DNA of 64,000 bases from an uncultured Gemmatimonadaceae bacterium (GCA_963781585.1 CAWAGQ010000011.1:320001-384000), one strand, 5' to 3'; positions 3,740 through 60,974 are shown, numbered from the stretch's first letter. Made by a program: numbers and translations. Notes: a model not told the origin generated them from the letters alone.

Positions 3740-4870
3740 ATGAGTGTCACATGCACGAAGCGGGTTGCTGCGGGGGCGTCGGTCGCGGCCGTCGTGCTGC
3801 TCGCCGCTTGCGGCGGCAGGCCGGCCAACGCACGGGAGGACGGCGCAACGGGCGCGGTTGCGATCGGCCCGGAGAACGTCTTCGTGGTCGCGTCGGACAC
3901 GCTCGCCAGCGGTCCCGCGGTATCGGGGACGCTGGAGCCCGAGCGCGAGGCCACGGTCCGCGCGCAGGTGTCGGGCGCGGTGATGTCGGTGGCGGTGGAC
4001 CAGGGAACGCACGTGCGCGCCGGCGACCTGCTCGCGCAACTGGACGACCGCACGCTGCGCGACGCCTGGCTGTCAGCCAAGTCGAACCTGACCACCGCCC
4101 AACTCACCGCCGAGCGCGCGCAGCGCGATCTGGAGCGTTCCGAACGCCTGTCGGCGGCCGGCGCGATCGCCGATCGGGATCTGGAGCAGGCGAAGTGGAA
4201 CAACACGTCGGCGCAATCGCAGCTGGCCGATGCCCAGTCGCGCCTGACGATGGCGAAGAAGCAGCTCGACGACGCGCGGATCACCGCGCCGTTCACCGGG
4301 ATCATCAGCACCCGGTCGGTGGCGGCGGGCGATGTGGCGCAACCCGGTACCGCGCTGTTCACGGTGGTCGATCCGTCGAGCATGCAGTACCAGGCGACCG
4401 TCACCGCCCAGCAACTCGGACAGGTGCGGCTGGGCGCGCCGGTGACGTTCGCGGTGACCGGCTATCCGGGCAAGCGGTTCGACGGGAAGGTGACGCGGAT
4501 CAGCCCCACCGCCGACCAGGCTACCGGCCAGGTGCGCGTCATCGTCTCCGTGCCTAACGGGGCGGGAACGCTGGTGGGCGGCCTGTTCGCCGACGGCCGC
4601 ATCCAGTCGGAGCGGCGGGTGGGGATCACCGCCCCCTTCACCGCGGTCGACCTGCGCGGCCTGCGCCCGATGGTGCTGCGGCTCAAGAACGGCAAGTCCG
4701 AGCACGTCGAGGTCACGCTCGGGGTCCGCGATGAGGACCGCGAGCGGTTCGAGATCGTGCAGGGCGTGAGTCCGGGAGATACGCTGCTGATTGGCGCGGC
4801 GCAGGGCATCTCGCCGGGAACGACGGTGCGCGTGGGATCGCCGTCCGACCGGCCCGCAACCAAGAGCTGA
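3740..4870 (+). CDS. RND efflux periplasmic adaptor (MFP) lipoprotein
   Basis: RBS AAGGAG at 3725; lipobox LLAAC; 'VDQGTHVRAGDLLAQLD' and 'ITAPFTG' motifs. Confidence 0.92.
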   Translation: MSVTCTKRVAAGASVAAVVLLAACGGRPANAREDGATGAVAIGPENVFVVASDTLASGPAVSGTLEPEREATVRAQVSGAVMSVAVDQGTHVRAGDLLAQLDDRTLRDAWLSAKSNLTTAQLTAERAQRDLERSERLSAAGAIADRDLEQAKWNNTSAQSQLADAQSRLTMAKKQLDDARITAPFTGIISTRSVAAGDVAQPGTALFTVVDPSSMQYQATVTAQQLGQVRLGAPVTFAVTGYPGKRFDGKVTRISPTADQATGQVRVIVSVPNGAGTLVGGLFADGRIQSERRVGITAPFTAVDLRGLRPMVLRLKNGKSEHVEVTLGVRDEDRERFEIVQGVSPGDTLLIGAAQGISPGTTVRVGSPSDRPATKS

Positions 4871-4881
4871 GGTCCGCCCGC

Positions 4882-7800
4882 ATGCTCATCTCCGATTTTG
4901 CCATCCGGCGGCCGATGGTCACCGTGGTGACCGTGCTGGCACTGGTGATCTTCGGGCTCTTCGCGCTGCTCCGGCTGCAGACCGACGAGTACCCGGACGT
5001 GCAGCAGCCGATCGTCAACGTCTCCATTCCCTATCCCGGCGCGTCGCCCGACGTGGTGGAGCGCGAAGTGCTGGACCGCGTGGAGGAGGCCGTCTCGGGC
5101 ATCAGCGGCGTGGACCAGATGTCGGGGAGCGCGCAGGACGGGTTCGCCAACGTCCTCGTCACCTTCCTGTTCGAGAAGGACATCCAGCAGGCCACCCAGG
5201 ACATCCGCGACAAGATCTCCGCGATTCGCGACCAGCTGCCGCCGGAAATGAAGGAGCCGATCCTGACGCGGTTCGATCCGTCGGATTATCCGATCGTGCA
5301 GGTGGCGCTGAACTCGACCACGCTCTCAGCACCGGAGCTCACCCGACTCGCCGACCCGGACATGACGCGCGAGCTGCGCGGCATCGAAGGAGTGGCCAAC
5401 GTCACCGTGGCCGGCGGCGTGGAACGGGAGCTCACCGTCTACATCCGGCCCGAAGCCATGCAGGCCGCCGGTGTGAGCGTGGCCGAAGTGGTGGCGGCGC
5501 TCCAGGCGCAGAACATCGCCGTCCCGGTCGGGAAGCTGAACGGCGCCCTCGACCAACGCTCCATCCGGCTCCGCGGCAAGCTCCAGGCGCCGGAAGATTT
5601 TCTCGCGCTGACGGTCGCCGAGCGCGGCGGCACCCCGATCCGACTGGGCCAGGTGGCCACCGTGCTCGACGGAACGGCCGAGCCGACCTCGATCGCGCTC
5701 TACAGCGGCAACGAGTCGGTGGGTTTGCTGGTGAACAAGGCGAAGGGGTACAGCACCACCCAGGTGGCCGGCCAGGTGCTCGCTCGGATTCACGAGATGG
5801 AGAAGACCCTCCCGCCGGGCACGACGATGCAGGTGGTGCAGAATTCGGGCGATCGCGTGAGCCGGTCGGTCACCGACGTGGACCGCACGCTGTTCGTCGG
5901 CGCCTTCCTCACGGTCCTGGTGGTGTTCCTCTTTCTGAACTCGTGGCGGTCGACGGTCATCACCGGGCTGGCGCTGCCGGTGTCGGTGCTGTCCGCGTTC
6001 ATCGCGGTCTACGCGTTCGGCTTTACGCTCAACACGATGTCGCTGATGGGTCTCTCGCTGGCCATCGGCATCCTGATCGACGACGCGATCGTGGTCCGGG
6101 AGAACATCGTCCGCCACATCGAGCGCGGGAAAGACCACTACACGGCATCGCGGGAAGCAACGGACGAAATCGGTCTCGCGGTCGCCGCCACGTCGTTTTC
6201 GATCATCGCGGTGTTCGTGCCGGTGGCGTTCATGTACGGCATCGCCGGCCAGTGGTTCAAGCCGTTCGCGCTGACCATTGCCTGCGCGGTGCTCGTCTCG
6301 CTGTTCGTCTCGTTCTCGCTCGACCCGATGCTCTCGGCCTACTGGGCCGATCCGCAGCTCGAGGCGGGGCAGCACCGCAACTGGCTGTCACGCAAGCTGG
6401 AGGGCTTCAACCGCTGGTTCAACCGGCTCACGCGGCGCTACACGCTGGTGGTGGCGTGGGCGCTGGACCATCGGTGGTGGATGGTGCTGCTTGCCGTGAC
6501 GGCGTTCTTCGGCGCGATCTTCCTCCAGGTCACCTTCGGCGGCTTCGGATTCGTCCCCGATTCCGACCGCAGCGAGTTCGTGATTCAGGTGGAAACACCC
6601 CCGGGATCGAATCTCGACTATACGCGCCTGAAGACCGAGGAAGCGGCGCGAATGGCGCGCGCCCATCGTGAGATTGCCTACACGTTCAGCACCATCGGGA
6701 GCGGCGGCCTGGCGGTGCCCGGTGGCGCGCTCGGCTCTCCGGAGCTCGGCACGATCTACGTGAAGATGATCAGGAAATCCGACCGCAGCATCAGCCAGAA
6801 GGATTTCGGCGAGGTGATGCGGCACGAAGTGGCGCAGATCGGCGGGGCGACGGTCTCGGTGTTCGTCGCGGGATTCGGCGCCGCGGCGCTCAAGCAGATC
6901 CAGGTACAGCTGCGCGGCAGGGACGCGAACGTGCTGAATGTGCTCGCCGATTCGGTGATGCAGGTGGTGAAGAGCGTTCCCGGCGCGGTGGACGTCGGCC
7001 TCTCCACCAAAGGCCAGAAGCCGGAACTCGAGATCCAGCTCAACCGCCCGCTGGCGGGCGCGCTCGGGGTGACGGTCGGGCAGGTCGCGCAGGCGCTGCG
7101 TCCGGCGTTCGCCGGTGTGGACGCCGGCGACTGGGTCGATCCATCGGGCGAGAACCGGAAGGTACGTGTGCGCCTGACGCCGGAATCGCGCACCCGGGTG
7201 GTGGACATCCAGCGGCTCCCGCTGCTGGTCCCGAAGCCCGGAGGCGGCAGCGTCGCCATGCCGCTCGGACAGATCGCCACGATTTCCGAAGGGCGCGCGC
7301 CCGCCGTTATCACGCATCTGGACCGGGACAACGTCGTGGCAATCCAGGCGAACATCACCGGACGCTCGCTGGGTGAGGTGAACGGCGACATTCAGAAGAA
7401 GCTCGCGAGCTTCCCCCTGCCGGCGGGGTATCGCTTCTCGGCCGGCGGCGAAGTGCAGGACCAGCAGCGGTTCTTCAGCAGCCTGTTCGCTGCGCTGGGG
7501 CTCGCGGTCATGCTCATGTACCTCATTCTGGTCGTGCAGTTCGGGTCGTTCCTGGATCCACTGGCCATCATGATGTCGTTGCCGCTGTCGCTCATCGGTG
7601 TGGTGCTGGCGCTGCTGGTCACCGGCGGAAACTTCAACATCATGGCGATGATCGGCGTGATCCTGCTCATGGGGATCGTGGCGAAGAACGCGATTCTGCT
7701 GATCGACTTCGCCAAGTGGGCGCGCGAGAAGGAAGGATTGCCGTTGCGGGACGCACTGATCGAAGCGGGGTCGATTCGGTTGCGACCGATTCTGATGACC

Positions 7801-8058: not shown

Positions 8059-8072
8059 CGGAGAAGGCAGGC

Positions 8073-8217
<145 letters not shown>

Positions 8218-9004: not shown

Positions 9005-10495
9005 TCATCGTGCCGCCGCCTTCTGAAGCAGTTGCCACGCTTCCGCCACGTGCTTGCGCTCGGTCCGCACGTTGCCGATCGACAGGCGCAGGACCATCCG
9101 GCCGTGGAGCCTGGTGTGCGACAGCAACACACGCCCGCTGGCGTTGACGGCATCCAGGATCTGCTGGTTGCGCCGGTCGCACTCCTCGTCAGGCAGACCG
9201 CGCGGCGCGTAGCGAAAACATACCAGCGAGAACATCTGCGGAGCGGCCAGCACCCAGTCGGGATCGGCCGCGACCCATGAGGCGAATTCGCGCGCCATCT
9301 CCATGTGACCGCGGAGGCGCTGGGCGATGCCCGACACCCCGAACGCGCGGATCACCATCCAGAGTTTGAGCGCGCGGAACCGCCGGCCGAGCTGGACGCC
9401 GTAGTCCATCAGGTTCACCACGACATCCTGCTCGGCCGTCACCAGGTACTCGGGCACGAGCGAGAACGCGCGCTTCAGCACCTCGGGGCGGCGCGTGTAG
9501 AGCGCGGAGATGTCGACCGGCGTGAAGAGCCACTTGTGCGGATTCACCACCAGCGAGTCGGCATCCTCCACGCCGTCCATGATGGATTTGTGTTCTGGTG
9601 TGATGGCCGCCACTCCGGCGTACGAGGCATCCACGTGCAGCCAGAGGTTCTCGCGGCGGCAGATGGCGGCGATGGCGGGCACCGGATCCACGCTCGCGGT
9701 ACTGGTGGTCCCGACCGTGGCCACCACCACCAGCGGCAGCCGCCCCTCTCGAAGGTCGGCCGCGATCGCTTCGTCGAGCGCGCCGGGCAGCATCCGGAAC
9801 GCGTCGTCCACCGGAACGTGGACGATGTTGTCCTGACCGAAGCCTAACGTGAGAGCCGCCTTGTCCACCGACGAGTGCGACTGCGCCGACGTGTACAGGC
9901 GCAGAGGCGGCAGATCGGGCCGGCCCGCCATACCGCGGCGGCGGATCTCGAGCTCCGGCCGGGCTTCCCGCGCCGCGGCCAGCGCGTACAGGGTTGACAT
10001 CGACGCCGTGTCGTTGATCACGCCGAACCACCCCGCGCGCAGCCCCATCATCTGTCGCAGCCAGTCCAGCGCGCGCTGTTCGAGCTCGGTCGCCGCCGGC
10101 GACGTGCGCCAGAGCATGGCGTTGACATCGAGCGCCGCCGCCAGCATCTCGGCGGCGATCCCCGGCGCCGATGCCGAGATCGAGAAGTAGCCGAAGAAGC
10201 CGGGGTGATTCCAGTGGGTGACGCCGGGGATGAGGATCCGTTCGAAGTCGTCGAGAATCCGGTCCATCGGCTCGGCACCCGGCGGAGGCTCGGCGGGCAG
10301 GCGCGCGGCGATGTCGCCCGGCGCGACCCGGGCGAGCACGGGGTAGTCGTCCACCTCCGCCAGGTACCGCTCGATCCACGCGGTCACACGCGTGAGCGCG
10401 GCGTGAATCTCGGCTGGGGAGAGATCGCCCGCCGCCGGCGAGTGGGTCACGGCGGGCGTCGGGACGGCGTGCTGCGAGGGCAGTTCCCGGCTCAC
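9005..10495 (-). CDS. Group II PLP-dependent decarboxylase (aromatic L-amino-acid decarboxylase-like)
   Basis: 'GVTHWNHPGFFGYF', 'WLHVDASYAG', 'NPHKW' (PLP lysine), 'QLGRRFRALKLW'. Confidence 0.95.
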   Translation of the reverse strand: MSRELPSQHAVPTPAVTHSPAAGDLSPAEIHAALTRVTAWIERYLAEVDDYPVLARVAPGDIAARLPAEPPPGAEPMDRILDDFERILIPGVTHWNHPGFFGYFSISASAPGIAAEMLAAALDVNAMLWRTSPAATELEQRALDWLRQMMGLRAGWFGVINDTASMSTLYALAAAREARPELEIRRRGMAGRPDLPPLRLYTSAQSHSSVDKAALTLGFGQDNIVHVPVDDAFRMLPGALDEAIAADLREGRLPLVVVATVGTTSTASVDPVPAIAAICRRENLWLHVDASYAGVAAITPEHKSIMDGVEDADSLVVNPHKWLFTPVDISALYTRRPEVLKRAFSLVPEYLVTAEQDVVVNLMDYGVQLGRRFRALKLWMVIRAFGVSGIAQRLRGHMEMAREFASWVAADPDWVLAAPQMFSLVCFRYAPRGLPDEECDRRNQQILDAVNASGRVLLSHTRLHGRMVLRLSIGNVRTERKHVAEAWQLLQKAAAR

Positions 10496-11460
10496 GGCGC
10501 CTCCCGCACCGGCGCCGGGGCCAGCGGCCGCCCGGCTCCCTCCCGATCACGGCCGTACAGCGTGATCAGCGCCACCGCGGCCACGATCACCCCGCCGGCG
10601 ACAACGATCCGGAGCGACACGGCTTCGCCGGCCACCACCGCACCAAGCAGCACCGCGACGACCGGATTGACGAACGCGTAGGTCGCCGCCAGCGCCGCGC
10701 TGGTCACGCCGAGCAGGTACATGTAGGTGGAATAGCCGACCACCGACCCGATGAGGATGAGATACACCAGCGAGAACCCGGACCGCCGCGTCACCGCACT
10801 CCAATCGAAACCATGGTACTCGCCGGCGACCGCGCCGAGGACGAGGACCGTCGCGCCACCGGTCATCAATTGCACGGCGCTGGTCTGAAGTCCCGAGCCG
10901 AGCCGGGGGACCCCGCGGGCGTAGATCGAGCCGCCGGCCCACAGCACCGTGCCGGACAGGACCACCCCCGCGCCTAACGGGTCGATCGGCGCACCGCCCA
11001 TCGAGTGCGGCCCCACCAGGACTACCGTCCCGAACACCCCCAGCGCGAGGCCGGCCATCACCCCCCACGCCGGCCGCCGGCCGCCGGGGCGCCACCACTC
11101 CAGCAGCACCATCCAGCACGGCGTCATGGCCACCAGCAGCGACGCGACCCCCGACGGAATGCGTTGCACCGACCACGTGATCGACACGTTGCCCAGCGTG
11201 AGCAGGATGCCGACCACCACGTGCGGTCGCCAGGCCGGGCTCACGCCCACGATGCCGCTCCGCCACGCCGCCAGCGCCAGGAGCACCGCGCCGGCCATGA
11301 AGAACCGGAACCCCGACACGCCGACGGGGGGAATGGTCTCCCCGGCAAAACGCATGAAGATGTAGGTCGAACCCCACACCACGTACAACGCGGCGAACGC
11401 CGTAATCAGCTGGCCGCGGGGCGCGTGCCCGTGCGGTCCGCCGCCGAAAGTCGTACTCAT
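10492..11460 (-). CDS. EamA/DMT family transporter (YedA-like)
   Basis: 'ALYVVWGSTY' and 'TYAFVNPVVAVLLG'; start ATG overlaps the upstream permease stop. Confidence 0.9.
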   Translation of the reverse strand: MSTTFGGGPHGHAPRGQLITAFAALYVVWGSTYIFMRFAGETIPPVGVSGFRFFMAGAVLLALAAWRSGIVGVSPAWRPHVVVGILLTLGNVSITWSVQRIPSGVASLLVAMTPCWMVLLEWWRPGGRRPAWGVMAGLALGVFGTVVLVGPHSMGGAPIDPLGAGVVLSGTVLWAGGSIYARGVPRLGSGLQTSAVQLMTGGATVLVLGAVAGEYHGFDWSAVTRRSGFSLVYLILIGSVVGYSTYMYLLGVTSAALAATYAFVNPVVAVLLGAVVAGEAVSLRIVVAGGVIVAAVALITLYGRDREGAGRPLAPAPVREAP

Positions 11461-12605: not shown

Positions 12606-13540
12606 GTCTCCCTCAGGTGGCGTCCGGTCAGCGAGACGAATACGTCCTCGAGGGTGGGCGTGTGCACGCGCAGCTCGGTGACGGTGGCGTCCAGGTCGTC
12701 GATCTGCCGGAGAATCGCCGGAAGCGCCTCGTGGGCCGCCGACACCTGCAGCGTCCAGACCGGGCCGTCGGAGCGCGAGGCGAGCACGCCCCGGACGCCA
12801 TCGAAGGCGCTCCCGGGCAGCGCCTGCCCGTCGCCCAGCGACAGTTCCACCACCTGTTCGGCGCCTAACGAGCGGATCAGGTCCCGCGGCGTGCCGGAGG
12901 CGATGATCCGGCCGTGGTCCACCACCGCCACCCGGTCGCACAGCCGCTCGGCTTCATCCATATAGTGGGTGGTGAGCAGGATCGTGCGCCCGGCCGCCCG
13001 CAGCCGGTCCACCAGCTCCCAGAGCTGGCGCCGCGACTGTGGATCGAGCCCGGTGGTGGGCTCGTCGAGAAACAGCAGCTCCGGATCGCCGACCAGCGCG
13101 CAGGCCACCGACAGCCGCTGCTTCTGGCCCCCCGACAGCGCCCCCACCCGCGCCCGCGCCTTCTCCTCGAGCTGCACCAGCCGCACGATCTCGCCAGCCG
13201 ACGGGCCCGATCGGTAGAAGCTGCGAAACAGGCTGACCGTTTCGGTGACCGTGAGCTTCTCGGAGAACTGCGTCTCCTGCAATTGCACGCCAAGCCGCTG
13301 ACGCAACTCGCGTTCGTCGCCGCGCCAGTGAAGCCCCAGTACTACCACCTCGCCCGCATCGGGAACGAGCAGACCCTCGCAGATCTCGATGGTTGTCGTT
13401 TTCCCCGCACCGTTAGGCCCGAGCAGCCCGAAGCACTCGGCGGCGCGCACCTCGAGATCGAGCCCGTCCACCGCCACCACGTCGCCATATGTCTTGCGCA
13501 ACGCGCGGACGTCCAGCACGTTCGCCCGGTTGATCGGCAT
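12602..13540 (-). CDS. ABC transporter ATP-binding protein
   Basis: Walker A GPNGAGKTT, signature LSGGQ, Walker B LFLDEPT. Confidence 0.95.
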   Translation of the reverse strand: MPINRANVLDVRALRKTYGDVVAVDGLDLEVRAAECFGLLGPNGAGKTTTIEICEGLLVPDAGEVVVLGLHWRGDERELRQRLGVQLQETQFSEKLTVTETVSLFRSFYRSGPSAGEIVRLVQLEEKARARVGALSGGQKQRLSVACALVGDPELLFLDEPTTGLDPQSRRQLWELVDRLRAAGRTILLTTHYMDEAERLCDRVAVVDHGRIIASGTPRDLIRSLGAEQVVELSLGDGQALPGSAFDGVRGVLASRSDGPVWTLQVSAAHEALPAILRQIDDLDATVTELRVHTPTLEDVFVSLTGRHLRET

Positions 13541-18354: not shown

Positions 18355-20805
18355 ATGCTGGCCGTCGCCGCACTGTCACTCGCACTCCATGTCTCGGTCC
18401 AGGTCGGGGCCGGCGGCACGTCCGACAGCGCCAAGCGCGCCAACCGCGACTCCATTCGCGCTCTCATTCGGGAGCGGGAGTACGATCGCTCGCGCAGGCC
18501 GCCGGTGCGGATTCCCGTCACGCCCGAGCTCGAAGCCAGCGCCTTTCGCGACTCGCGCGCCAGGGACCTGTTGTTGAGTGCGCGGGCGGCGCGACTGCGG
18601 CAGGACTCAACGCTCCAGTCGTACGACGCCAACGCCTACCAGCGATTGTCGGTCGGGATCGGTCTTCGAGCCATCGGACGGGACCGGCTGTTCTTCCGCA
18701 CCGAAAACGCCACCCGCGTGCGCTGGTCGCGCGACGGCGGCGCCTGGATCGACGTCAAGGGAGAACGCAGCGTCGTGCCCGGCATCAAGGACGCCGACAC
18801 CGACGTCGACCTGAGCGATCTCGTCTCGCTGCCCTACTTCCCCGGACGCGAAGCGCTCTGGGTCGGCTCGAGCGCAACCGCGAGGCCCGAGGTTGACGAG
18901 CGGGAACTGGTCCACCCCATCGCGACGGGGTCCGAAGCGTACTACCGCTACTCGACCGGGGATTCCATCAAGTTCACTCTCCCCGATGGCAAGGTGATTC
19001 GCCTGCAGGAGCTGCGGGTCGAGCCGCGGCGGCCCGAGTGGAAGCTGTCGGTGGGATCGTTCTGGTTCGACGTCTCCTCGGGCCAACTCGTGCGCGCGGT
19101 GTACCGGTTGGCGGTGCCGATCGACATCTGGGCGGTGGCCAGCGACGAGGCGCGGCGCGACGCCGAGGAGGCCGTGGCGGCGGGGCGGAAGCCAAACAAG
19201 GACGATGATCCTCCCGGTTGGGTGAAGGGGCTGATCTCGCCACTCTCGGCCAATCTGGAAGTCGTGACGATCGAGTACGGACTCTACGGCACGCGCTTCT
19301 GGATGCCACGCACACAGTATGCGGAAGGCTGGGCCCGCGCGGGTTTCATGCGGATCCCGTTCAAGATCGAGGAATCGTTCAAGTACGCGAGCGTCAATGG
19401 CGGCGAGAGCATCCCGCCGGTTCCTCCGGCGCCGAAGACGTTGCGTGATTCGCTTTTCCCGGGCGACAGCACGCCGTGGCGCGACCTTGCCCCTGACGAG
19501 CGCCGTCGCCGGAACGCGGCCATCTCGGATGCGGCGGCCGAGCGCGCCAGGAATCGCGAGGCCGCGCGCAAGGACGAGTGCCAGACCACCGGCTCCTGGA
19601 CGCAGGTCATGGAACGCTACCAGGGCGCGGTACGGGTTGCCGTGCAGATTCCGTGCGACAGCCTCAAGCTGGCGACGTCTCCCGAGCTGCCGCCCTCGAT
19701 CTTCGATCCCGCGGACGAACTCTTCGGCGTGCACGAACGAGATGAGCTGGTCAAGGCGCTCGGGTTCTCGCTGCAGGCCGACTGGGCGCCGCAGCGTCCG
19801 GTGCTGCACTATGGCCTGGCGCTCACCCGGTACAACCGCGTCGAAGGCCTGTCCAGCGGGCTTGGTGTCACCTCGCAGCTTGGCCGTGGGTACACCCTCG
19901 ACGGCACCGCGCGCCTCGGGACCGGGGACTGGGAGCCTAACGCGGAACTGGGCGTGTCGAGATCGAACGGCCGCACCACCTGGCGGCTGGGTGGATACCG
20001 CCGCCTCGCGGTGGCCAGCGACTGGGGCAACCCCCTGTCGTTCGGGAGCAGCCTGACCGCGCTCCTGTTCGGACGCGACGACGGCTTCTACTACCGTGCC
20101 GCCGGCGCCCAGCTGGAACGATCGAGTACCGCCGGCGGCGGATTCTCCACGCGATTCTTCGCGGAATACGACACGCCCGCGCGTGTGACCACGCGATTCA
20201 ACCTGGCGCGCGCGTTCGGCTCGCCGACCGAATTCCGGGACAACGTCGACGCCGTCCGCGGAACGGCTCTTGGCACGGCGATACGCGACACGCGCAGCTT
20301 CGGACTGGATCCGGCGGGCTGGCGCGCGTTCACCGATCTGCGATTGGAGGGCGGGTGGTTCGCTCCGGCGCATTCGCAGGACGGTGCCGCGCATGCGTTC
20401 GCTCGCGCCGCCGCCGATGTCACCGTATCGCGCGGCCTCGGCGGCGCCCTGGCCGCGGCGCTCACCGTGGGCGGCGGCAACAGCGACCACGCACCCATCC
20501 AGCGCGCCTTCTTCCTTGGCGGAGCCCAGACGGTGCGCGGCCAGGTGCCGGGGACCGGGATCGGACAGGCATACTGGCTGTCGCGACTCGAACTGGGCAC
20601 CAGCGGCAGCGGCGCGCGGCGTGTGCTGTTCGGCGACCTCGGCTGGGCCGGTCCGCGCGCCATGTGGCAGCATCCCGGCCGGCCCATGAGCGGCGCCGGC
20701 GTCGGCCTCTCGTTCCTCGACGGCCTGGTTCGCGCCGATCTCTCACACGGCATCTATCCACGCAAGAAGCTGCGCTTCGATCTGTACCTGGAAGCACCCT
20801 TCTAG
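18355..20805 (+). CDS. Outer membrane protein with a C-terminal Omp85-like beta-barrel, function unknown
   Basis: Signal peptide; 'RYNRVEGL', 'FFLGGAQTVRG' (L6-loop-like); ends in amphipathic strand 'RFDLYLEAPF'. Confidence 0.7.
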   Translation: MLAVAALSLALHVSVQVGAGGTSDSAKRANRDSIRALIREREYDRSRRPPVRIPVTPELEASAFRDSRARDLLLSARAARLRQDSTLQSYDANAYQRLSVGIGLRAIGRDRLFFRTENATRVRWSRDGGAWIDVKGERSVVPGIKDADTDVDLSDLVSLPYFPGREALWVGSSATARPEVDERELVHPIATGSEAYYRYSTGDSIKFTLPDGKVIRLQELRVEPRRPEWKLSVGSFWFDVSSGQLVRAVYRLAVPIDIWAVASDEARRDAEEAVAAGRKPNKDDDPPGWVKGLISPLSANLEVVTIEYGLYGTRFWMPRTQYAEGWARAGFMRIPFKIEESFKYASVNGGESIPPVPPAPKTLRDSLFPGDSTPWRDLAPDERRRRNAAISDAAAERARNREAARKDECQTTGSWTQVMERYQGAVRVAVQIPCDSLKLATSPELPPSIFDPADELFGVHERDELVKALGFSLQADWAPQRPVLHYGLALTRYNRVEGLSSGLGVTSQLGRGYTLDGTARLGTGDWEPNAELGVSRSNGRTTWRLGGYRRLAVASDWGNPLSFGSSLTALLFGRDDGFYYRAAGAQLERSSTAGGGFSTRFFAEYDTPARVTTRFNLARAFGSPTEFRDNVDAVRGTALGTAIRDTRSFGLDPAGWRAFTDLRLEGGWFAPAHSQDGAAHAFARAAADVTVSRGLGGALAAALTVGGGNSDHAPIQRAFFLGGAQTVRGQVPGTGIGQAYWLSRLELGTSGSGARRVLFGDLGWAGPRAMWQHPGRPMSGAGVGLSFLDGLVRADLSHGIYPRKKLRFDLYLEAPF

Positions 20806-21248: not shown

Positions 21249-21274
21249 GAGCCTAACGCCGAAGCGGGACCCAT

Positions 21275-43622: not shown

Positions 43623-44125
43623 GGTTCCTGACGCAGCGCCGACCGCAGCGCGTGCCACGCCAGGCTCGCGCACTTGACCCGGATCGGGAAACGCGCCACC
43701 CCGGCGAACGCCCGCAGGGAACCTAACGAGGCGTCGGGTGCCGTCGGCGTCGCCGCTTCACCGCCGCGCGGCTCGCGCGCCGGTGGAGCGGCCGCCCCGG
43801 GCGCCAGCGCCGATCCCGGCTCCCGGGCGCCGCTCCCGGTGACCAGCGCGTGGAACCGTTCGAACAGCGCCTCCGCCTCGCCGCGCGTCTTCCCCTTCAC
43901 CGCCTGGGTCATCATCGACGCCGACGCCTTGGAGATGGCGCACCCTTCCCCGGTGAACCTGACGTCGCGGATCCGGTCGCCGTCCAGGTCCACGTACAGC
44001 GTGAGACGGTCGCCGCACAGCGGATTGTGCCCCTCCACGCGGCGCGCGCCAGGCAACTCGCCCCAGTTCCGCGGCGCGCGGTTGTGGTCCAGGATGACCT
44101 CGGCGTACAGCCCGTCGAGCTCCAT
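43619..44125 (-). CDS. sufU: SUF system SufU (NifU-N family)
   Basis: 'VILDHNRAPRN', 'NPLCGD', 'GCAISKASAS', 'RVKCASLAW'. Confidence 0.93.
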   Translation of the reverse strand: MELDGLYAEVILDHNRAPRNWGELPGARRVEGHNPLCGDRLTLYVDLDGDRIRDVRFTGEGCAISKASASMMTQAVKGKTRGEAEALFERFHALVTGSGAREPGSALAPGAAAPPAREPRGGEAATPTAPDASLGSLRAFAGVARFPIRVKCASLAWHALRSALRQEP

Positions 44126-44127: not shown

Positions 44128-45501
44128 TCAGGCAAAGAGCGCGCGCACGCGATGCAGCGCGCGCACCAGCGCGTCCACCTCGTGGCGCGTGTTGTACAGA
44201 TAGAACGACGCGCGGGCCGTGGCCGGAACGCCGAACCGCCGCATCAGCGGCTGGGCGCAGTGATGTCCGGCGCGGATGGCGATGCCGTCGCTGTCGAGCA
44301 CTGTCGCCACGTCGTGCGGATGGACGCCCTCCAGCACGAAGCTCAGCACGCCGGTCTTCTCCGGCGCGGTCCCGATCAGCCGGACCCCGTCCACCTCGTG
44401 CACCTGTTCGGTGGCGTAGCTGAGAAGGTCGTGTTCGTGGGCCGCAACCGCGGCGCGGTCCACGCGCTCCAGATATTCGATCGCCTGCCGGAACGCCACG
44501 ACCGACGCGATGTCGGGCGTCCCCGCTTCGAACTTCGCCGGCAGCCGGGCGTACGTGGTACGCTCGAACGTCACCGTGTCGATCATGTCGCCGCCCCCCT
44601 GCCACGGCGGAAGGCGGTCCAGCCACGTCTCCTTCCCGTAGAGCACCCCGGTGCCGGTGGGGCCCAGCATCTTGTGCGCCGAGAAGGCGAGGAAGTCGCA
44701 GTCCACGTCGCGCACGTCGACCGCGATGTGCGGGGCCGCCTGGGCCGCGTCGAGCAGCACCGGAATCCCGCGGTCGTGCGCCAGCGCCACGATCCGCCGC
44801 ACCGGGTTGATCGTGCCTAACGCGTTGGAGACCCAGGTCAGCGCCACCAGCCTGGTGCGTGGCCCCAGCAGGCGCTCGTACGCCGCCAGGTCGAGCGAGC
44901 CGTCGTCGCTCACCGGCACCGGGCGCAGCACCGCCCCGGTCCGTCCGGCCATCAATTGCCAGGGCACGATGTTCGAGTGATGCTCCATCTCCGATATCAC
45001 AATCTCGTCGCCCTCTCCCACGCCGGTCTGGCCGAACGTCGCCGCCACCAGGTTGATCGCCTCGGTGGTGTTGCGCGTGAAGACGATCTCGTGGGCATGG
45101 CGCGCGTTGACGAACCGGCGCACCGCTTCACGCGTGGCGTCGTACAGCTCGGTGGCGCGCTCACTCAGATAGTGCACGCCGCGATGGATGTTGCCGTTCT
45201 CTTCCTCGTAGAATCGTCGCACGGCGTCGATCACGACCCGCGGTTTCTGGCTGGTGGCCGCGCTGTCGAGGTAGACCAGCGGCTTGCCGCGCGGCGTCGT
45301 GGCCAGGATCGGGAAGTCGGCGCGCAGCCGTTCGACATCGAGCGCCGGGGAGACCGAAACGCCGCGCCCCGCCATGCCGGCAGTCACCGCAACCCCACCC
45401 CCGGCCGCCGGCCCGCCGGCAGTCGCGGCGGCACCGGTCATTCGCGAATCGGCGCCGCCCCCGTCCGGGGCCACTGTCTCGCTACGCGATCCCTGATCCA
45501 T
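44128..45501 (-). CDS. sufS: Cysteine desulfurase SufS
   Basis: 'YLDSAATSQKP', 'EHHSNIVPW', 'SAHKMLGPTG', 'RAGHHCAQP'; start may be downstream. Confidence 0.96.
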   Translation of the reverse strand: MDQGSRSETVAPDGGGADSRMTGAAATAGGPAAGGGVAVTAGMAGRGVSVSPALDVERLRADFPILATTPRGKPLVYLDSAATSQKPRVVIDAVRRFYEEENGNIHRGVHYLSERATELYDATREAVRRFVNARHAHEIVFTRNTTEAINLVAATFGQTGVGEGDEIVISEMEHHSNIVPWQLMAGRTGAVLRPVPVSDDGSLDLAAYERLLGPRTRLVALTWVSNALGTINPVRRIVALAHDRGIPVLLDAAQAAPHIAVDVRDVDCDFLAFSAHKMLGPTGTGVLYGKETWLDRLPPWQGGGDMIDTVTFERTTYARLPAKFEAGTPDIASVVAFRQAIEYLERVDRAAVAAHEHDLLSYATEQVHEVDGVRLIGTAPEKTGVLSFVLEGVHPHDVATVLDSDGIAIRAGHHCAQPLMRRFGVPATARASFYLYNTRHEVDALVRALHRVRALFA

Positions 45502-52727: not shown

Positions 52728-52728
52728 C

Positions 52729-53085: not shown

Positions 53086-53218
<133 letters not shown>

Positions 53219-53232
53219 CGGAAGCCCAGCGT

Positions 53233-53358: not shown

Positions 53359-54468
53359 TCAGCTGCTCGCTGCCAGCCAGGGAACGATGACCGCCTTCGT
53401 CACTTCGCGTCGCGCGACCGCGTCCAGTGCGCGGCCGGCGTCGGCGAGGCCGAACCGGCCCCCGATCATGTCGCGCCACGGCACTTGGTCGCCGAACCGC
53501 GCCGCCAGCCGGACCGCGCGATACAGGTGCGAGAAGTCCGAACCCCAGCAGCCACGGATCTCGACGTGCTTGCGGTTGATCTGCCAGTGCGGATGGATGC
53601 GGACGTCGCCGGTGTCCGTGTAGTGCCCGCACACCACTACTCTGCCGCCGTCGCGCACCAGGTCCAGCGCCTGCGGCACCGCTTCCGGGACGCCGGTGGC
53701 TTCGATCACCACGTCCACGCCGCGTCCGCGCGTCAGCTCGCGCACACGTCTAGCCCGTTCGTCAGGCGGCAGGTCGAGCCCGATCGCGTCGGTGGCGCCC
53801 ATCCGCCGGGCGAAGTCCAGCCGCGACGCGGGATCGCCGATCGCGACGATCCACTCGGCGCCGCCTAACGCGGACAGCGCAATCGCCGACTGGCCCACGG
53901 GCCCCACGCCCAGCACGGCGACGCTGTCGCCGAGGCGCAGCTCGGCGCGCTCCACCGCGTGGAGCGCGGTCACCAGGCCGCATCCGCCGCCGATGAACGT
54001 CTCGGGGTCGAGGCCAGAGGGGAGGTGCAGCATGTGAACGCCGGGCTTCATCCAGATCGCCTCGGCCCAACCGCCTAACAAGCCGTCGGCCGCACCGTAG
54101 GTGATGCCGTAGACGCGGCGGTGGGGACAGCGGGTGGTCTGTTTCGTCACCAGGCAGTGGTAGCACCGGCCGCAGGTGCCGTGGACGTCGAGGAAGGTGA
54201 CTGTGTCGCCTTCGCGGAACGGGACGCCGTCCACGTCCTCGAGTGGCGTCGCGAGCTCGGCGATCGCGCCCACCGAGACATGGCCCGGGATGATCGGATA
54301 CGGGACGCCGCTCAGCCGGCCGTGGTGGAGATGGACATCGGTGCCGCAGACCTCGGAGAAGAGGACGCGGAGGAGGGCGGCGCCGGGTTCGAGCACCGGG
54401 GCCGCGATCTCTTCGAGGCCGATCGCCGCGTCAGGCGCGGGCATGATGGCGGCGGCATATGCAGGCAT
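53359..54468 (-). CDS. Zinc-binding alcohol dehydrogenase (MDR family)
   Basis: 'VCGTDVH', 'PGH', CGRCYHC..C structural zinc site, GVGPVG. Confidence 0.93.
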   Translation of the reverse strand: MPAYAAAIMPAPDAAIGLEEIAAPVLEPGAALLRVLFSEVCGTDVHLHHGRLSGVPYPIIPGHVSVGAIAELATPLEDVDGVPFREGDTVTFLDVHGTCGRCYHCLVTKQTTRCPHRRVYGITYGAADGLLGGWAEAIWMKPGVHMLHLPSGLDPETFIGGGCGLVTALHAVERAELRLGDSVAVLGVGPVGQSAIALSALGGAEWIVAIGDPASRLDFARRMGATDAIGLDLPPDERARRVRELTRGRGVDVVIEATGVPEAVPQALDLVRDGGRVVVCGHYTDTGDVRIHPHWQINRKHVEIRGCWGSDFSHLYRAVRLAARFGDQVPWRDMIGGRFGLADAGRALDAVARREVTKAVIVPWLAASS

Positions 54469-55953: not shown

Positions 55954-55991
55954 GACGCAGGATCCACATCTTCACAACGAGAGGTTTTGGT

Positions 55992-56159: not shown

Positions 56160-56272
56160 CCGAGCGCTGGCGAAAAACACAAACGCGGATGCGTCTGGTG
56201 GTGCGGCACGGAGCATCGTGCCCGCCGCCGGCGCTACGCGCCAATCGCTGCACCAAAACGAGAGGTACGGGC

Positions 56273-56461: not shown

Positions 56462-56544
56462 CGTACGCGGCGTGGCTCCGGCGCACTTTCGGCGTCCGTC
56501 GCGACGCTGTGGCGAGGAACCACGCAACGGCGGACTGGAAGACA

Positions 56545-57087
56545 ATGCTTCTGCAATCGCCGCATGGCCCGGCCTGGGGGGCGCTGTTCACGGCGCTGCT
56601 TGTCGCAGGCTGCGTGGCAGACGTTAAGTGGCGGCGGATCCCGAATGGCCTGGTTCTGGCAATTGCCATCACCGGACTCTGCCATTCCATTACCACACGA
56701 CCGGTCTGGCAGGGTCTCGGTTCCAGTGTGGCCGGGCTTCTGTTAGGCTTTGTGATCTGGATCGTCTTTTACGTCGCGGGCGTTCTCGGCGCCGGCGACG
56801 TCAAGTTCTTTGCTGCGGCTGGCGCCTGGCTCGGCCCCGCGGCGACCTGGCGCGCAGCGCTGGTCGCCGGCGTGGCTGGTGGGGTGCTCGCCGTCTTATA
56901 TCTGGTTCGCGAACGACGGCTGGCCAGTACCGTCCGTCGCATGGCCCTTGCAACGTCGTCCCGTACGCCGGCGCTCTTCGGGGAGATGCCCGACGCCGCG
57001 GGTTCAACACGGCGACACCTTCCGTACGGGGTGGCTCTGGCACTGGGCGCGCTGACGGCGGCATGGGTGCCGCACCTTCTGGCGTAG
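56545..57087 (+). CDS. cpaA: Prepilin peptidase CpaA/TadV (A24)
   Basis: 'DVKWRRIPN', 'GAGDVK', 'LPYGVAL'. Confidence 0.92.
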   Translation: MLLQSPHGPAWGALFTALLVAGCVADVKWRRIPNGLVLAIAITGLCHSITTRPVWQGLGSSVAGLLLGFVIWIVFYVAGVLGAGDVKFFAAAGAWLGPAATWRAALVAGVAGGVLAVLYLVRERRLASTVRRMALATSSRTPALFGEMPDAAGSTRRHLPYGVALALGALTAAWVPHLLA

Positions 57088-57097
57088 GGGAGCCACG

Positions 57098-57523: not shown

Positions 57524-57593
57524 CGGGGCTTCCTCGAAGTTGCCGGCCGGGCGGCGGGGCGGAACGTGTCGTTAGGCAGATCCCTCGAACCAC

Positions 57594-58550: not shown

Positions 58551-58555
58551 CGGCG

Positions 58556-59758: not shown

Positions 59759-59783
59759 TGGCGATGGAACTGACCGTGTCTGC

Positions 59784-60974
59784 ATGAACCGCCAGGCCCT
59801 GATCATTGGCGACGCGGTTGGCGCCGAGTCGGCGCTGGAGCAGACGCTCCAGCGCTACGGCTACACGACCATCCTCCACCGTCCCGGCGTGGCGGAAGGG
59901 CTGGAGTTCATAGGTCACGAGCACGTGGACCTGCTGTTCGTCCCCATCGACGCGGTGGATGAGCTCCAGCTCGCGGCGATCGACCGGGCGGGCCGACGCG
60001 AGCGGCACATGGGCGTCGTGGCCACCGGTCCGCGCACTGATCCGGAACTCATGCTCCGCGCAATGCGCGCGGGGATCCAGGAGTTCCTCGTCCGCCCCGT
60101 GGTGCTCGCCGACCTGGTCTCCGCAGTGGAGCGGCTGCATCGGCGAACAAACCTGGGAGTGACAAGTGGTCAGGTGTACGCCGTGTTCAGCTCCAAGGGA
60201 GGCGTGGGAACGAGCACGATCGCCCTCAACCTGGCGTACGCGCTGGCGTGCAATCACAAGGAAGCGCGAGTCGCGATTGCCGACCTGGCGATTCCCGGTG
60301 GCGACATCCGCGTCCTGCTCAACGTGCGGCCGTCGTACGACCTGGGCGACCTGGCTGCCAAGATCGACCGGGTGGATCGCGAGCTCCTCAACTCCGTACT
60401 CGTGCCGGCCACCGACGGCCTCTGGGTTCTGGCCGCACCCGAGCGGCCGGAAGCCGAGGAAATGATAGACGCCAACGTCGTATCGAGCGTGATCCAGCAG
60501 CTGCGCGGGGCCTTCAACTACAGCGTGGTCGATTGCGAGACCCAGATGAGCGACCGCACGCTGGCGGCGCTCGACGCATCGGACCGGATCATCCTCATCA
60601 CCGAGCTGAAGGTCCCGGCCATGCGCGCGGCGCAGCGGACGCTGGGGCTCTTCCGGCGGCTCGGCTACCCCAACGAGAAGCTGTGCGTGGTGGTGAACCG
60701 GTATCAGTCGGGCGATGTGGTCTCGGCGGCGGAAGCCGCCGACGTCCTCAAGACCGACCTGTTCTTCAAGCTGCCTAACGACTACCGGACGGCCTCGGAG
60801 TCGGCCACCGCCGGCGTCCCGATCGCCAAGAGCCACCCCGAGTCGAAGCTCGCCTGGGGATTCCTGCAACTGGCCCAGAAGCTGGGTGGCGGAGCGCTCG
60901 CCAGCGCCGACCGCGCCGGGACCAACGGGTCGCGCAAGGCCATTCGCAGTCTGTTCACGCGAAAGAGGAGTTGA
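59784..60974 (+). CDS. cpaE: CpaE/TadZ pilus localisation ATPase with receiver-like N-terminal domain
   Basis: '[10 protein letters not shown]', deviant Walker A 'KGGVGTST', 'VVNR', 'LPND'. Confidence 0.9.

What the first reader, a model, noticed from the sequence alone, without database searches (positions are those of the whole stretch)
4552..60780. Dispersed octamer GCCTAACG/CGTTAGGC written into genes via rare codons: candidate genome-wide DNA signal (uptake-sequence-like or HIP-like)
Seen in sequence: I counted by eye 19 exact copies, starting at 4552, 9842, 10972, 12863, 13411, 19935, 21251, 24983, 27208, 31849, 32448, 33674, 40961, 42671, 44815, 48953, 53863, 57570 and 60773. Five one-mismatch copies keep the CCTAAC core (35507, 35896, 43721, 54073, 56741). 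Of these 24, 22 lie in CDS: 16 as TTA-GGN (Leu-Gly) and 6 as CCT-AAC (Pro-Asn). TTA is otherwise very rare here, so the motif overrides codon bias. A rough zero-order estimate at ~70% GC gives only 2-3 exact copies. Orientation is about even (14 vs 10) and the motif is not palindromic. Established knowledge: Chi and KOPS are strand-skewed, whereas Neisseria/Pasteurellaceae uptake sequences and cyanobacterial HIP1 are unskewed and embedded in CDS. Inference: a lineage-specific signal such as a DNA uptake sequence, a nucleoid-protein site, or a methylation/repair-driven motif. A link to the Tad pilus in this window is speculative.
Basis: partly seen in the sequence, partly recalled or inferred. 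Interest (0 to 1): 0.85.

Follow-up and report, generated by a model that had tools for sequence, protein, structure and literature searches.

The report
Hyper-abundant DNA octamer in Gemmatimonadaceae genomes
A soil-bacterium lineage has written one exact 8-letter DNA word into its genes about twenty times more often than chance allows, even using codons it otherwise avoids, in a pattern that most resembles the 'self-DNA' uptake tags known so far only from two families of Proteobacteria.

Summary
GCCTAACG occurs 19 times in the window, against 0.7-0.9 expected under dinucleotide, Markov and synonymous-codon nulls. Eighteen copies are in genes. They lie on conserved Leu-Gly or Pro-Asn dipeptides, written with the rare codons TTA and CCT.

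The window is from a Gemmatimonadaceae genome. The same word is enriched in a well-supported clade of relatives: 20 copies in 78.5 kb, against 3 in 619 kb of other Gemmatimonadota loci. In 600 kb sampled from two megaplasmids of cultured Gemmatirosa kalamazoonensis there are 409 copies against 20 expected.

A second lineage carries a one-base variant, GCCTGACG: 21 copies in 21 kb.

Other properties:
- No replichore skew.
- Spacing more even than random.
- Rarely in inverted pairs.
- Not reported among the methylated motifs of the published SMRT methylome.

My best reading is a DUS/USS-like signal, kept up by a drive or by selection acting on DNA. This is inferred, not shown (confidence about 0.4). 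Chi/KOPS-like, HIP-like methylation-driven and architectural readings are weaker rivals. I found no report of it in print.

The parts
4552..4559 (+). exact GCCTAACG; sense in RND membrane-fusion (HlyD) gene, read GTG CCT AAC GGG (V-P-N-G)
9842..9849 (+). exact copy; antisense in PLP decarboxylase gene, coding strand ACG TTA GGC (T-L-G)
10972..10979 (+). exact copy; antisense in EamA transporter gene, CCG TTA GGC (P-L-G)
12863..12870 (+). exact copy; antisense in ABC ATPase gene, TCG TTA GGC (S-L-G)
13411..13418 (-). exact copy; sense in the same ABC ATPase gene, GGG CCT AAC GGT (G-P-N-G; I read this as the Walker A loop, a recalled label)
19935..19942 (+). exact copy; sense in 816-aa hypothetical gene, GAG CCT AAC GCG (E-P-N-A)
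21251..21258 (+). exact copy; antisense in a doubtful 143-aa ORF (20876-21307 -), GCG TTA GGC
   Evidence: no Pfam match
24983..24990 (+). exact copy; sense in Big_2 surface protein gene, ACG CCT AAC GAC (T-P-N-D)
27208..27215 (+). exact copy; sense in CDP-alcohol phosphatidyltransferase gene, CTG CCT AAC GCC (L-P-N-A)
31849..31856 (-). exact copy; antisense in RidA gene, TCG TTA GGC (S-L-G)
32448..32455 (-). exact copy; antisense in esterase gene, TCG TTA GGC
33674..33681 (-). exact copy; antisense in 182-aa hypothetical gene, TCG TTA GGC
40961..40968 (-). exact copy; antisense in ModC gene, ACG TTA GGC; the same codon site carries the word in L013 and L054
42671..42678 (-). exact copy; antisense in 422-aa hypothetical gene, GCG TTA GGC
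44815..44822 (+). exact copy; antisense in SufS gene, GCG TTA GGC; the orthologues aligned at this site read CTC/CTG/CTT/CTA for Leu, or Val, Ile or Thr codons
48953..48960 (+). exact copy; antisense in SufB gene, CCG TTA GGC; shared with L016 only
53863..53870 (+). exact copy; antisense in Zn-ADH gene, GCG TTA GGC; L001 and L024 have Ile (ATC/ATT) at this site
57570..57577 (-). exact copy; the only intergenic one, between TadE-like and CpaB genes
60773..60780 (+). exact copy; sense in CpaE gene, CTG CCT AAC GAC (L-P-N-D)
35507..35514 (-). one-mismatch copy ACCTAACG; TCG TTA GGT in 182-aa hypothetical gene
35896..35903 (-). one-mismatch copy ACCTAACG; TCG TTA GGT in Ser/Thr kinase-TPR gene
43721..43728 (+). 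one-mismatch copy ACCTAACG; in-frame TTA GGT in SufU/NifU_N gene 43619-44128 (-) (frame by my arithmetic)
54073..54080 (+). one-mismatch copy GCCTAACA; TTG TTA GGC in Zn-ADH gene
56741..56748 (-). one-mismatch copy GCCTAACA; CTG TTA GGC in A24 prepilin peptidase gene 56509-57087 (+) (frame by my arithmetic, peptide ..GLLLGF..)

Best explanation
GCCTAACG is a genome-wide signal at the DNA level, specific to one lineage of Gemmatimonadaceae. It is recognised as an exact 8-bp word, with G much preferred over A at position 8.

A force that favours alleles carrying the word keeps it at about one copy per 1.5-3.5 kb. That force is strong enough to install the otherwise avoided codons TTA, CCT, CTA and AGG wherever the protein already reads [S/P/T/A]-L-G or P-N. 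The word is gained and lost at individual sites, so it sits in a balance between mutation and that force.

The most likely force is DNA uptake and recombination that prefers the species' own DNA, as with the DUS of Neisseriaceae and the USS of Pasteurellaceae. A surface or periplasmic DNA receptor would bind the word, fragments carrying it would be imported and recombined more often, and the word would spread by molecular drive. A one-base change in the receptor's specificity would give the GCCTGACG dialect of the second lineage.

Shown here: enrichment, clade restriction, the dialect, strand symmetry, even spacing, synonymous writing, and absence from the motifs reported in the SMRT methylome.

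Inferred: recognition by a protein, the drive, and any role in uptake.
For: 1. Enrichment of 20-fold or more under every null: 19 copies against 0.91, 0.75 and 0.68 expected.

2. All eight positions matter. Single-mismatch variants are barely enriched in the window and the clade loci. In G. kalamazoonensis only GCCTAACA (45 against 7.7 expected), GCCCAACG (75 against 16.8) and GCCTGACG (58 against 28) stand out.

3. The word is written on conserved peptides by synonymous change (CTC/CTG to TTA, CCG/CCC to CCT), and its presence is patchy among orthologues.

4. Occupancy of fully compatible sites:
- nCG-Leu-GGC uses TTA at 12 of 27 sites in the window, 9 of 25 in clade loci and 1 of 125 in non-clade loci.
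- G-CCN-AAC-G uses CCT at 6 of 10, 7 of 14 and 1 of 47 sites in the same three sets.

5. It is clade-restricted. There are 20 copies in 78.5 kb of 8 loci, against 3 in 619 kb of the 47 other Gemmatimonadota loci. Six of those 8 loci plus the window form one clade with 100% SH-like support.

6. It is the top octamer in G. kalamazoonensis KBS708: 409 copies in 600 kb against 20 expected.

7. There is a dialect. GCCTGACG occurs 21 times in L028 (1.9 expected), 13 times in L039 (2.4 expected) and twice in L045. These three loci form their own clade, and the word there sits in five different coding readings, again using rare codons.

8. There is no strand skew: 178 + to 197 - over 550 kb, and 133 on the G-rich strand to 158 on the C-rich strand among the 291 copies with a confident gene-strand call.

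9. Spacing is even:
- Window gap CV is 0.65, P = 0.03.
- G. kalamazoonensis gap CV is 0.80.
- None of its 120 five-kb windows is empty, and variance/mean is 0.68.

10. Occupancy falls as coding cost rises, at 62%, 32%, 20% and 12% for the four readings. The abstract of 10.1101/2025.10.24.684340 reports a comparable frame bias for DUS/USS inside genes.

11. Dialects are a known property of DUS (PMC3630211; title and start of abstract only).
Against: - No uptake, competence gene (ComEC, ComEA, DprA) or receptor was examined. The window holds only a Tad/Flp locus.
- I found no report of transformation in this phylum. In one search only the listing and passages of one paper were seen.
- About half of known DUS/USS lie in terminators, and inverted pairs are common (abstract of 10.1101/2025.10.24.684340). 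Here 18 of 19 copies are in CDS, and only 2 inverted close pairs were found among the 428 copies examined (409 G. kalamazoonensis plus 19 window).
- The word is shorter (8 bp) than the DUS of 10-12 bp or the USS of 9 bp plus flanks (those lengths are recalled).
- The statistics alone cannot separate uptake drive from any other process that favours alleles carrying the word.
- In the window itself, candidate-normalised use is higher on the + strand (12 of 17 against 6 of 20, P = 0.02). The clade loci do not repeat this (8 of 16 against 8 of 23).
Confidence: 0.4

Rival explanations
1. A motif driven by methylation or repair, like cyanobacterial HIP1. A sequence-specific DNA modification enzyme, together with a short-patch or mismatch repair activity that resolves mismatches towards the word, steadily converts near-cognate sites into GCCTAACG. 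A change in the enzyme's specificity would give the GCCTGACG lineage.
For:
- Its patchy distribution (two separate clades among about ten) would fit a mobile modification system.
- A one-base change of specificity is typical of such enzymes (recalled).
- In G. kalamazoonensis the transition neighbours GCCCAACG (75 against 16.8 expected) and GCCTAACA (45 against 7.7) are the enriched one-off forms.
Against: - The published SMRT methylome of KBS708 reports exactly three m6A motifs, none related to the word, each more than 99% methylated (whole text read). From established knowledge of SMRT kinetics (not stated in the paper), an m6A or m4C mark on a word this common should have been seen. m5C is poorly detected and so is not excluded.
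- The word is not a palindrome.
- A single-position conversion hotspot is rejected. In the dialect lineage and in G. kalamazoonensis the word sits in all coding phases.
- Even spacing is not expected from a purely mutational process.
Confidence: 0.15
2. A Chi-like recombination hotspot. The word would be read on single-stranded DNA by the RecBCD or AddAB helicase-nuclease of these bacteria, switching it from degradation to RecA loading. Different lineages would have different Chi words.
For: - It is an 8-mer like E. coli Chi, with a similar density of one per few kb (recalled).
- It is lineage-specific, spread through core genes, and evenly spaced.
- There is a weak orientation preference in the window (12 of 17 against 6 of 20 candidate sites, P = 0.02), and orientation is clustered in L028.
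Against: - There is no replichore skew in 550 kb of a complete replicon. The share of + copies is 31-59% in each 50-kb block, and 133 to 158 on the G-rich versus C-rich strand among copies with a confident gene-strand call.
- The window's preference is not repeated in the clade loci.
- Enrichment of 20-fold or more, with 30-60% of all compatible sites occupied, is far above what I recall for known Chi words.
- Most sister clades show no comparable word at all, whereas every RecBCD/AddAB user should have one.
Confidence: 0.1
3. A binding site for an abundant chromosome-organising or self-marking protein: a nucleoid-associated protein, a condensin or segregation loader, or a marker of own DNA read by a defence or repair nuclease. 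Selection would act on the chromosome as a whole, with no role for DNA uptake.
For: - It is exact, independent of strand, and evenly spaced with no empty 5-kb window.
- Density on the sampled megaplasmid DNA (409 copies in 600 kb) is at least as high as in the window (19 in 64 kb).
- The specificity change between lineages would fit co-evolution with a DNA-binding protein.
Against: - The dispersed protein-binding words that I recall (parS, matS, SlmA and Noc sites, KOPS) are either few in number, palindromic or polar.
- Selection on any single site would be very weak, so it is hard to see how it overcomes codon bias at hundreds of sites without a drive.
- No candidate protein was identified.
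Confidence: 0.2
4. A by-product of peptide and codon usage, or of translation (for example TTA used as a regulatory rare codon), with no meaning at the DNA level.
For: All genic copies in the window lie in one codon phase and encode only L-G or P-N.
Against: - A shuffle that preserves amino acids and codon usage gives 0.68 copies against 18 observed.
- Both reverse-complementary readings are used in proportion to site supply (12 of 27 and 6 of 10).
- Non-clade relatives encode the same peptides without the word (1 of 125 and 1 of 47).
- The phase restriction dissolves in G. kalamazoonensis and in the dialect lineage.
Confidence: 0.01

Closest known systems
USS of Pasteurellaceae and DUS of Neisseriaceae (together 'DUES')
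   Same: - A short exact non-palindromic word, hugely over-represented.
- Both orientations are used.
- It is restricted to one lineage, with one-base dialects in related lineages (PMC3630211; title and start of abstract seen).
- Copies inside genes are biased to the cheapest reading frames (abstract of 10.1101/2025.10.24.684340).
- Spacing is fairly even (for DUS/USS this is recalled).
   Different: - 8 bp rather than 9-12 bp (recalled lengths).
- Almost no copies in terminators or inverted pairs, whereas about half of DUES lie in terminators.
- A different phylum, with no competence reported in the searches I ran.
- Neither uptake bias nor a receptor is shown.
HIP1 (GCGATCGC) of cyanobacteria
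   Different: HIP1 is a palindrome and has been linked to cognate methyltransferases (recalled). Here the word is not a palindrome and is not among the three motifs reported in the SMRT methylome.
Chi (E. coli GCTGGTGG) and KOPS/AIMS
   Same: Over-represented octamers of the core genome, at about one per few kb for Chi (recalled).
   Different: Those are strongly co-oriented with replication (recalled). Here the count is 178 to 197 overall and 133 to 158 by GC-skew strand. The enrichment here is also much higher.

Membership tests
DNA uptake sequences (DUS/USS) | Exact short word, hundreds to thousands of copies, far above composition-based expectation | tested here: met
   19 copies against 0.7-0.9 expected in the window; 409 against 20 in 600 kb of G. 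kalamazoonensis
DNA uptake sequences (DUS/USS) | Both orientations used about equally, with no replication polarity | tested here: met
   178 + to 197 - over 11 blocks of plasmid 1; 133 to 158 by GC-skew strand
DNA uptake sequences (DUS/USS) | Restricted to one lineage, with related dialects in neighbouring lineages | tested here: met
   Clade of 7 rows with 100% support, plus L034; GCCTGACG in L028, L039 and L045
DNA uptake sequences (DUS/USS) | Many copies in transcription terminators, often as inverted pairs (Neisseriaceae especially) | tested here: not met
   18 of 19 copies in CDS; of 7 close pairs (60 bp or less apart) among the 428 copies examined (409 G. kalamazoonensis plus 19 window), only 2 are inverted
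DNA uptake sequences (DUS/USS) | DNA carrying the word is taken up or transforms better than DNA without it | not testable with these tools
   Needs an assay in G. kalamazoonensis KBS708
DNA uptake sequences (DUS/USS) | Competence machinery and a sequence-specific receptor are present | not tested
   The window holds only a Tad/Flp locus.
Chi | Orientation bias towards the leading strand | tested here: not met
   the window's weak bias (P = 0.02) is not repeated in clade loci
Chi | Recognised by RecBCD/AddAB | not testable with these tools
   Biochemistry needed
KOPS / polar architecture words | Strong polarity (I recall above 80%) that switches at ori and dif | tested here: not met
   31-59% + in each 50-kb block
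HIP1-like palindromes | Palindromic word | tested here: not met
   GCCTAACG is not its own reverse complement (sequence)
HIP1-like palindromes | Coupled to a cognate DNA methyltransferase | tested here: inconclusive
   The SMRT methylome lists only RGATCY, ATGCAC and CCAGN7TCA; m5C was not assayed there

The most novel reading that the evidence does not exclude
This would be the first sequence-specific DNA uptake ('self-DNA tag') system outside the Proteobacteria. It would have an 8-bp uptake word with at least two dialects (GCCTAACG and GCCTGACG) in soil Gemmatimonadaceae. It might be read by a receptor unlike neisserial ComP, conceivably a component of the Tad/Flp pilus that these genomes carry, given that Flp-pilus-dependent transformation exists in Micrococcus luteus (PMC4322843; title and start of abstract seen).
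Probability: 0.3. Interest if true: 0.85.

Novelty: new variant of a known kind. Interest (0 to 1): 0.75.

Why it matters
Sequence-tagged recognition of a species' own DNA is known in only two proteobacterial families. A third, independent case would matter for three reasons:

- It would be in one of the most abundant but least cultured soil phyla, and would show that such tags are a more general solution.
- It would give a handle on gene flow in soil populations. Recombination is reported to be common there and is associated with ComEC loci (PMC7305173, passages seen).
- Because the two dialects differ by one base, it offers a natural experiment for finding the reader protein by comparative genomics.

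The word is the top octamer in the cultured, fully sequenced G. kalamazoonensis KBS708, so the question can be tested directly.

Even if uptake is not the function, something in these cells reads an exact 8-bp word strongly enough to rewrite hundreds of codons.

Practically, the word is a sharp marker for binning, and for spotting foreign DNA, in Gemmatimonadaceae metagenomes.

Tried and rejected
1. **Strict codon-phase restriction as a mechanistic clue.** In the window and its relatives, 40 of 42 copies have the wobble at word positions 1, 4 and 7. I considered a position-4 C-to-T conversion or deamination hotspot, which would be synonymous only in that phase. I rejected it for four reasons:
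   - Fully compatible sites for the other allowed phase are few: 2 in the window and 8 in clade loci, 1 of them used.
   - G. kalamazoonensis uses all four readings (CCT 89 of 144, TTA 173 of 539, CTA 17 of 85, GTT-AGG 17 of 140).
   - The dialect lineage uses five readings.
   - The intermediate forms are not enriched in the window (GCCTAGCG 0, GCCCAACG 1).

2. **TTA as a regulatory rare codon, or off-frame 'ambush' stops.** Rejected.

3. **Orientation polarity.** The window shows + 12 of 17 against - 6 of 20 candidate sites (P = 0.02). L028 shows a run of - copies followed by a run of + copies. Neither is repeated in the clade loci or in G. kalamazoonensis, where the only signal is mild clustering of orientation (189 runs against 210 expected, P = 0.015). 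Antisense-to-gene copies outnumber sense copies there, 205 to 110.

4. **Extended consensus.** None was found beyond a pyrimidine just 5' of the word: 84% in G. kalamazoonensis and 14 of 19 in the window. This is not evident in L001 or L016.

5. **Other hyper-abundant octamers in the remaining Gemmatimonadota loci.** None was comparable. That screen covered only loci of 12 kb or more, listed the top four words per locus, and required at least 3 dispersed copies.

6. **Literature.**
   - The octamer as a text string gives 280 papers. The 20 listed are unrelated by title.
   - 'Gemmatimon' together with 'uptake sequence' gives 0 papers.
   - A four-term uptake-sequence search gives 0 papers.

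7. **Accession guesses.** Guesses for the G. kalamazoonensis records were not found. Its chromosome and its 21-kb phage-like element therefore stayed unchecked.

9. **Technical failures.** timed out and was rerun. One search failed on a frame slip and was corrected.

Full report
**1. The observation**

One hundred dinucleotide-preserving shuffles give a mean of 0.91 and a largest value of 5.

An order-3 Markov model expects 0.75. Once the words generated by tandem heptamer arrays are set aside, this is the most deviant dispersed octamer in the window.

The flanks share no further conservation. The five one-mismatch copies that keep CCTAAC are also present.

**2. Gene context in the window**

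I built a gene model from GC3 periodicity and Pfam. Eighteen of the 19 copies lie in genes, and all 18 are in a single codon phase:
- 12 are antisense to the gene, where the coding strand reads nCG-TTA-GGC ([S/P/T/A]-Leu-Gly).
- 6 are sense, reading nnG-CCT-AAC-Gnn (Pro-Asn).

Of 18 TTA codons in 19,593 codons, 15 are followed by GG and 12 sit in the exact word. Two genes added later contribute two more TTA-GG codons (and my frame arithmetic).

Shuffling synonymous codons within each gene keeps every protein and each gene's codon usage, including the TTA codons themselves. It gives 0.68 copies (largest 4 in 500 shuffles) against 18 observed. Shuffling codon order gives 0.41.

**3. Where the window comes from, and who else has the word**

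A search with the window's SufD returned 80 loci. The nearest are Gemmatimonadaceae MAGs, at 67-68% identity over the full length and 81% over a partial match. The genome itself is not in the collection.

| Sequence set | Size | Copies observed | Copies expected |
|---|---|---|---|
| 8 enriched loci (L001, L011, L013, L016, L017, L024, L034, L054) | 78.5 kb | 20 | 0.73 |
| 47 other Gemmatimonadota loci | 619 kb | 3 | 2.1 |

Two of the three copies in the second row are a single conserved SufC site.

I built a FastTree tree from concatenated SufB, SufC, SufD and SufS (55 rows; L049 was dropped for short coverage).
- The window groups with L016, L013, L001, L011, L024 and L054 in one clade with 100% SH-like support.
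- L034 (3 copies in 20.7 kb) is nearby on a weakly supported branch.
- L017 (1 copy) lies elsewhere and may be chance.

**4. How the word is written**

Codon-level alignment of orthologues shows the word on conserved peptides, with synonymous differences in relatives that lack it:
- SufB residue 164 is P-L-G-S in several loci. The window and L016 read CCG TTA GGC. Other relatives read CTC, CTG or CTT for the Leu.
- SufS residue 228 reads TTA only in the window.
- ModC residue 312 reads TTA in the window, L013 and L054.
- A regulator site reads TTA in L001 and L013 but CTC in the window.
- The SufC G-P-N-G site (which I read as the Walker A loop) reads CCT in four clade loci but CCC in the window.
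- At one ADH site the window has Leu (TTA) where two relatives have Ile.

Sites are therefore gained and lost.

Use of the rare codon at sites where the flanking bases already fit:

| Site type | Window | Clade loci | Non-clade loci |
|---|---|---|---|
| nCG-Leu-GGC read with TTA | 12 of 27 | 9 of 25 | 1 of 125 |
| G-CCN-AAC-G read with CCT | 6 of 10 | 7 of 14 | 1 of 47 |

Window values come from curated genes. The other values use a local-phase method.

**5. The codon-phase puzzle and its resolution**

Forty of 42 copies in the window and its relatives have the codon wobble at word positions 1, 4 and 7. I first read this as a sign of a position-specific conversion process. It is mostly a matter of supply and cost:
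- One phase is closed by the stops TAA and TAG.
- In the remaining phase, fully compatible Leu-Thr sites are few (2 in the window, 8 in clade loci, 1 used), and the Val-Arg reading needs two rare codons.
- In G. kalamazoonensis all four readings are used, at 62%, 32%, 20% and 12% of compatible sites.

**6. A cultured carrier**

A tblastn search of the plasmid collection, using a window protein, found the two megaplasmids of Gemmatirosa kalamazoonensis KBS708. In the first 50-kb stretch of each, GCCTAACG is the top-ranked octamer, with 29 and 34 copies.

Eleven 50-kb blocks spaced around the 1.1-Mb plasmid 1 hold 375 copies. With the block from plasmid 2 the total is 409 in 600 kb, against 20 expected.

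Orientation:
- 178 + to 197 - overall.
- 31-59% + in each block.
- 133 on the G-rich strand to 158 on the C-rich strand, among the 291 plasmid-1 copies with a confident gene-strand call, tabulated by gene strand and GC-skew half.
- Among the 315 of 409 copies with a confident call, 205 are antisense to the gene and 110 are sense. This matches the larger supply of Leu-Gly sites.

Spacing:
- None of 120 five-kb windows lacks the word.
- Variance/mean of the counts is 0.68.
- Gap CV is 0.80.
- In the window, gap CV is 0.65, with P = 0.03.

Only 7 pairs lie within 60 bp of each other, and 2 of those are inverted.

Among single-base variants, only three exceed expectation: GCCTAACA (45 against 7.7), GCCCAACG (75 against 16.8) and GCCTGACG (58 against 28).

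**7. A dialect**

A per-locus screen for dispersed over-represented octamers flagged L028.
- All 21 of its GCCTGAC heptamers are followed by G, giving 21 copies of GCCTGACG in 21.3 kb against 1.9 expected.
- L039 has 13 (2.4 expected) and L045 has 2 in 4.2 kb.
- These three loci form their own well-supported clade, separate from the GCCTAACG clade.

In this lineage the word occurs as Pro-Asp, Ser-Gly, Leu-Thr, Val-Arg and Arg-Gln readings, again with rare codons such as CCT, TCA and AGG.

Two lineages of one family thus carry words that differ at exactly one position. The other sampled clades show nothing comparable (with the limits of that screen stated under Tried and rejected).

The sister word is mildly enriched in the GCCTAACG genomes: 12 against 5.3 in the window, 18 against 6.0 in clade loci, and 58 against 28 in G. 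kalamazoonensis.

**8. Methylation**

I read the whole text of the genome announcement of KBS708 (PMC3974934). It reports SMRT base-modification analysis with three m6A motifs: RGATCY, ATGCAC and CCAGN7TCA. Each is more than 99% methylated. Nothing related to GCCTAACG is reported.

On the megaplasmid DNA sampled here the word occurs about once per 1.5 kb. From what is generally known of SMRT kinetics, an m6A or m4C mark on it should not have been missed. m5C is poorly detected by that method and stays open.

**9. Interpretation**

The data show a word read at the DNA level. Both complementary readings are used in proportion to site supply, and the word appears in all coding phases where the code allows. 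It has 8-bp precision. It is maintained across a deep clade by a force strong enough to occupy a third to a half of all compatible sites against codon bias. Its specificity has shifted by one base in another lineage.

It is strand-symmetric and evenly spaced. Those properties, together with the dialects and the cost-ranked use of reading frames, are the statistical signature of DUS/USS uptake sequences. For that comparison I saw the title and the start of the abstract of PMC3630211 and the abstract of 10.1101/2025.10.24.684340.

I commit to that reading at about 0.4. The main gaps are:
- It is not a member of the DUS/USS family by the terminator or inverted-pair criterion, which was tested and not met.
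- The defining functional features, uptake bias and a receptor, are untested.

Chi and KOPS are disfavoured by the absence of polarity. A HIP-like methylation model is weakened by the methylome and by the word not being a palindrome. A role as a binding site for a chromosome-organising protein or a self-marking protein cannot be excluded.

The Tad/Flp locus in the window comprises two Flp pilins, an A24 peptidase, TadE, CpaB, CpaC, CpaE, CpaF, TadB and TadC. It is only circumstantially interesting, because Flp-dependent transformation is known in Micrococcus luteus (PMC4322843; title and start of abstract seen).

**10. Novelty**

I found no report of this word or of uptake-type sequences in Gemmatimonadota. 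For the searches I saw only the listings, plus the papers named above.

**11. What stayed unchecked**

- The chromosome and the 21-kb element of KBS708.
- Competence genes in motif-bearing genomes.
- m5C.

Noticed in passing
window 8069-8217, 24118-24147, 39116-39200, 41918-41998, 53087-53219: These are intergenic tandem arrays of 7-bp units: AGGCCAG x21.6, CTTTGGC x4.3, CCTTTGG x12.1, GACCACA/GACCTCT, and AGAGGCC x19. They produce the window's most deviant 8-10-mers. Period-7 arrays of at least 4 copies also occur in 17 of the Gemmatimonadota suf loci and in 9 of 12 G. kalamazoonensis blocks. In G. kalamazoonensis they are often two adjacent arrays of reverse-complementary units, such as CGGGACT / AGTCCCG. 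The unit sequence differs between genomes. Their function is unknown. They recall cyanobacterial STRR heptamers (recalled).
   Followed up: partly
L028 1-21305; L039; L045: In L028 the dialect copies are 11 of 12 on the - strand up to position 12.3 kb, then 8 of 9 on the + strand. Genes of both orientations lie on each side of the switch. My hand runs calculation puts this near P = 0.01, but it was not computed by a tool. 'ATG CCT GAC GC' (M-P-D-A) recurs at or near possible gene starts in L028 and L039.
   Followed up: partly
window 4552-60780: Orientation comes in blocks: + for 8 of 9 copies (4.5-27 kb), - for 5 of 5 (31.8-42.7 kb), and + for 4 of 5 (44.8-60.8 kb). Normalised to candidate sites, use is + 12 of 17 against - 6 of 20, Fisher P = 0.02. 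A runs test is not significant (P = 0.12).
   Followed up: yes
window 47608-47777: Tandem 14-bp and 41-bp repeats (ATCAGCGGTCAGCT and a 41-mer, 3.4 copies) lie between sufC and sufB. A related 14-mer lies at 39054-39093.
   Followed up: no
window 55908-64000: A complete-looking Tad/Flp pilus locus: two tandem Flp pilin genes (55908-56159 and 56120-56461), an A24 prepilin peptidase (56509-57087), TadE-like, CpaB, CpaC secretin, CpaE, CpaF ATPase, TadB, and TadC, which is cut by the window end.
   Followed up: partly
window 43619-44128 (-): A SufU/NifU_N gene lies between the Rieske gene and sufS. My GC3 filter missed it (Pfam E = 3.8e-22). The operon reads HTH regulator, sufB, sufC, sufD, sufS, sufU, Rieske.
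   Followed up: yes
window 30088-30621 (+); 50082-53172 (-): There is a SWIB/MDM2-domain protein (E = 5e-28), which is unusual in bacteria (recalled). There is also a PadR regulator next to a 900-aa MacB/FtsX-type permease. I recall this pairing as typical of Acidobacteria and Gemmatimonadota. G. kalamazoonensis plasmids hold about 30 places each that match this permease.
   Followed up: no
SufC G-P-N-G codons in L039, L045, L036, L004: The SufC G-P-N-G site is read CCT AAC not only in four GCCTAACG-clade loci. It is also read this way in L039 and L045 (the GCCTGACG dialect), where it forms the full word, and in L036 and L004. In most other loci it is CCG or CCC. This could be a relic of an older distribution of the word, or chance.
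   Followed up: no
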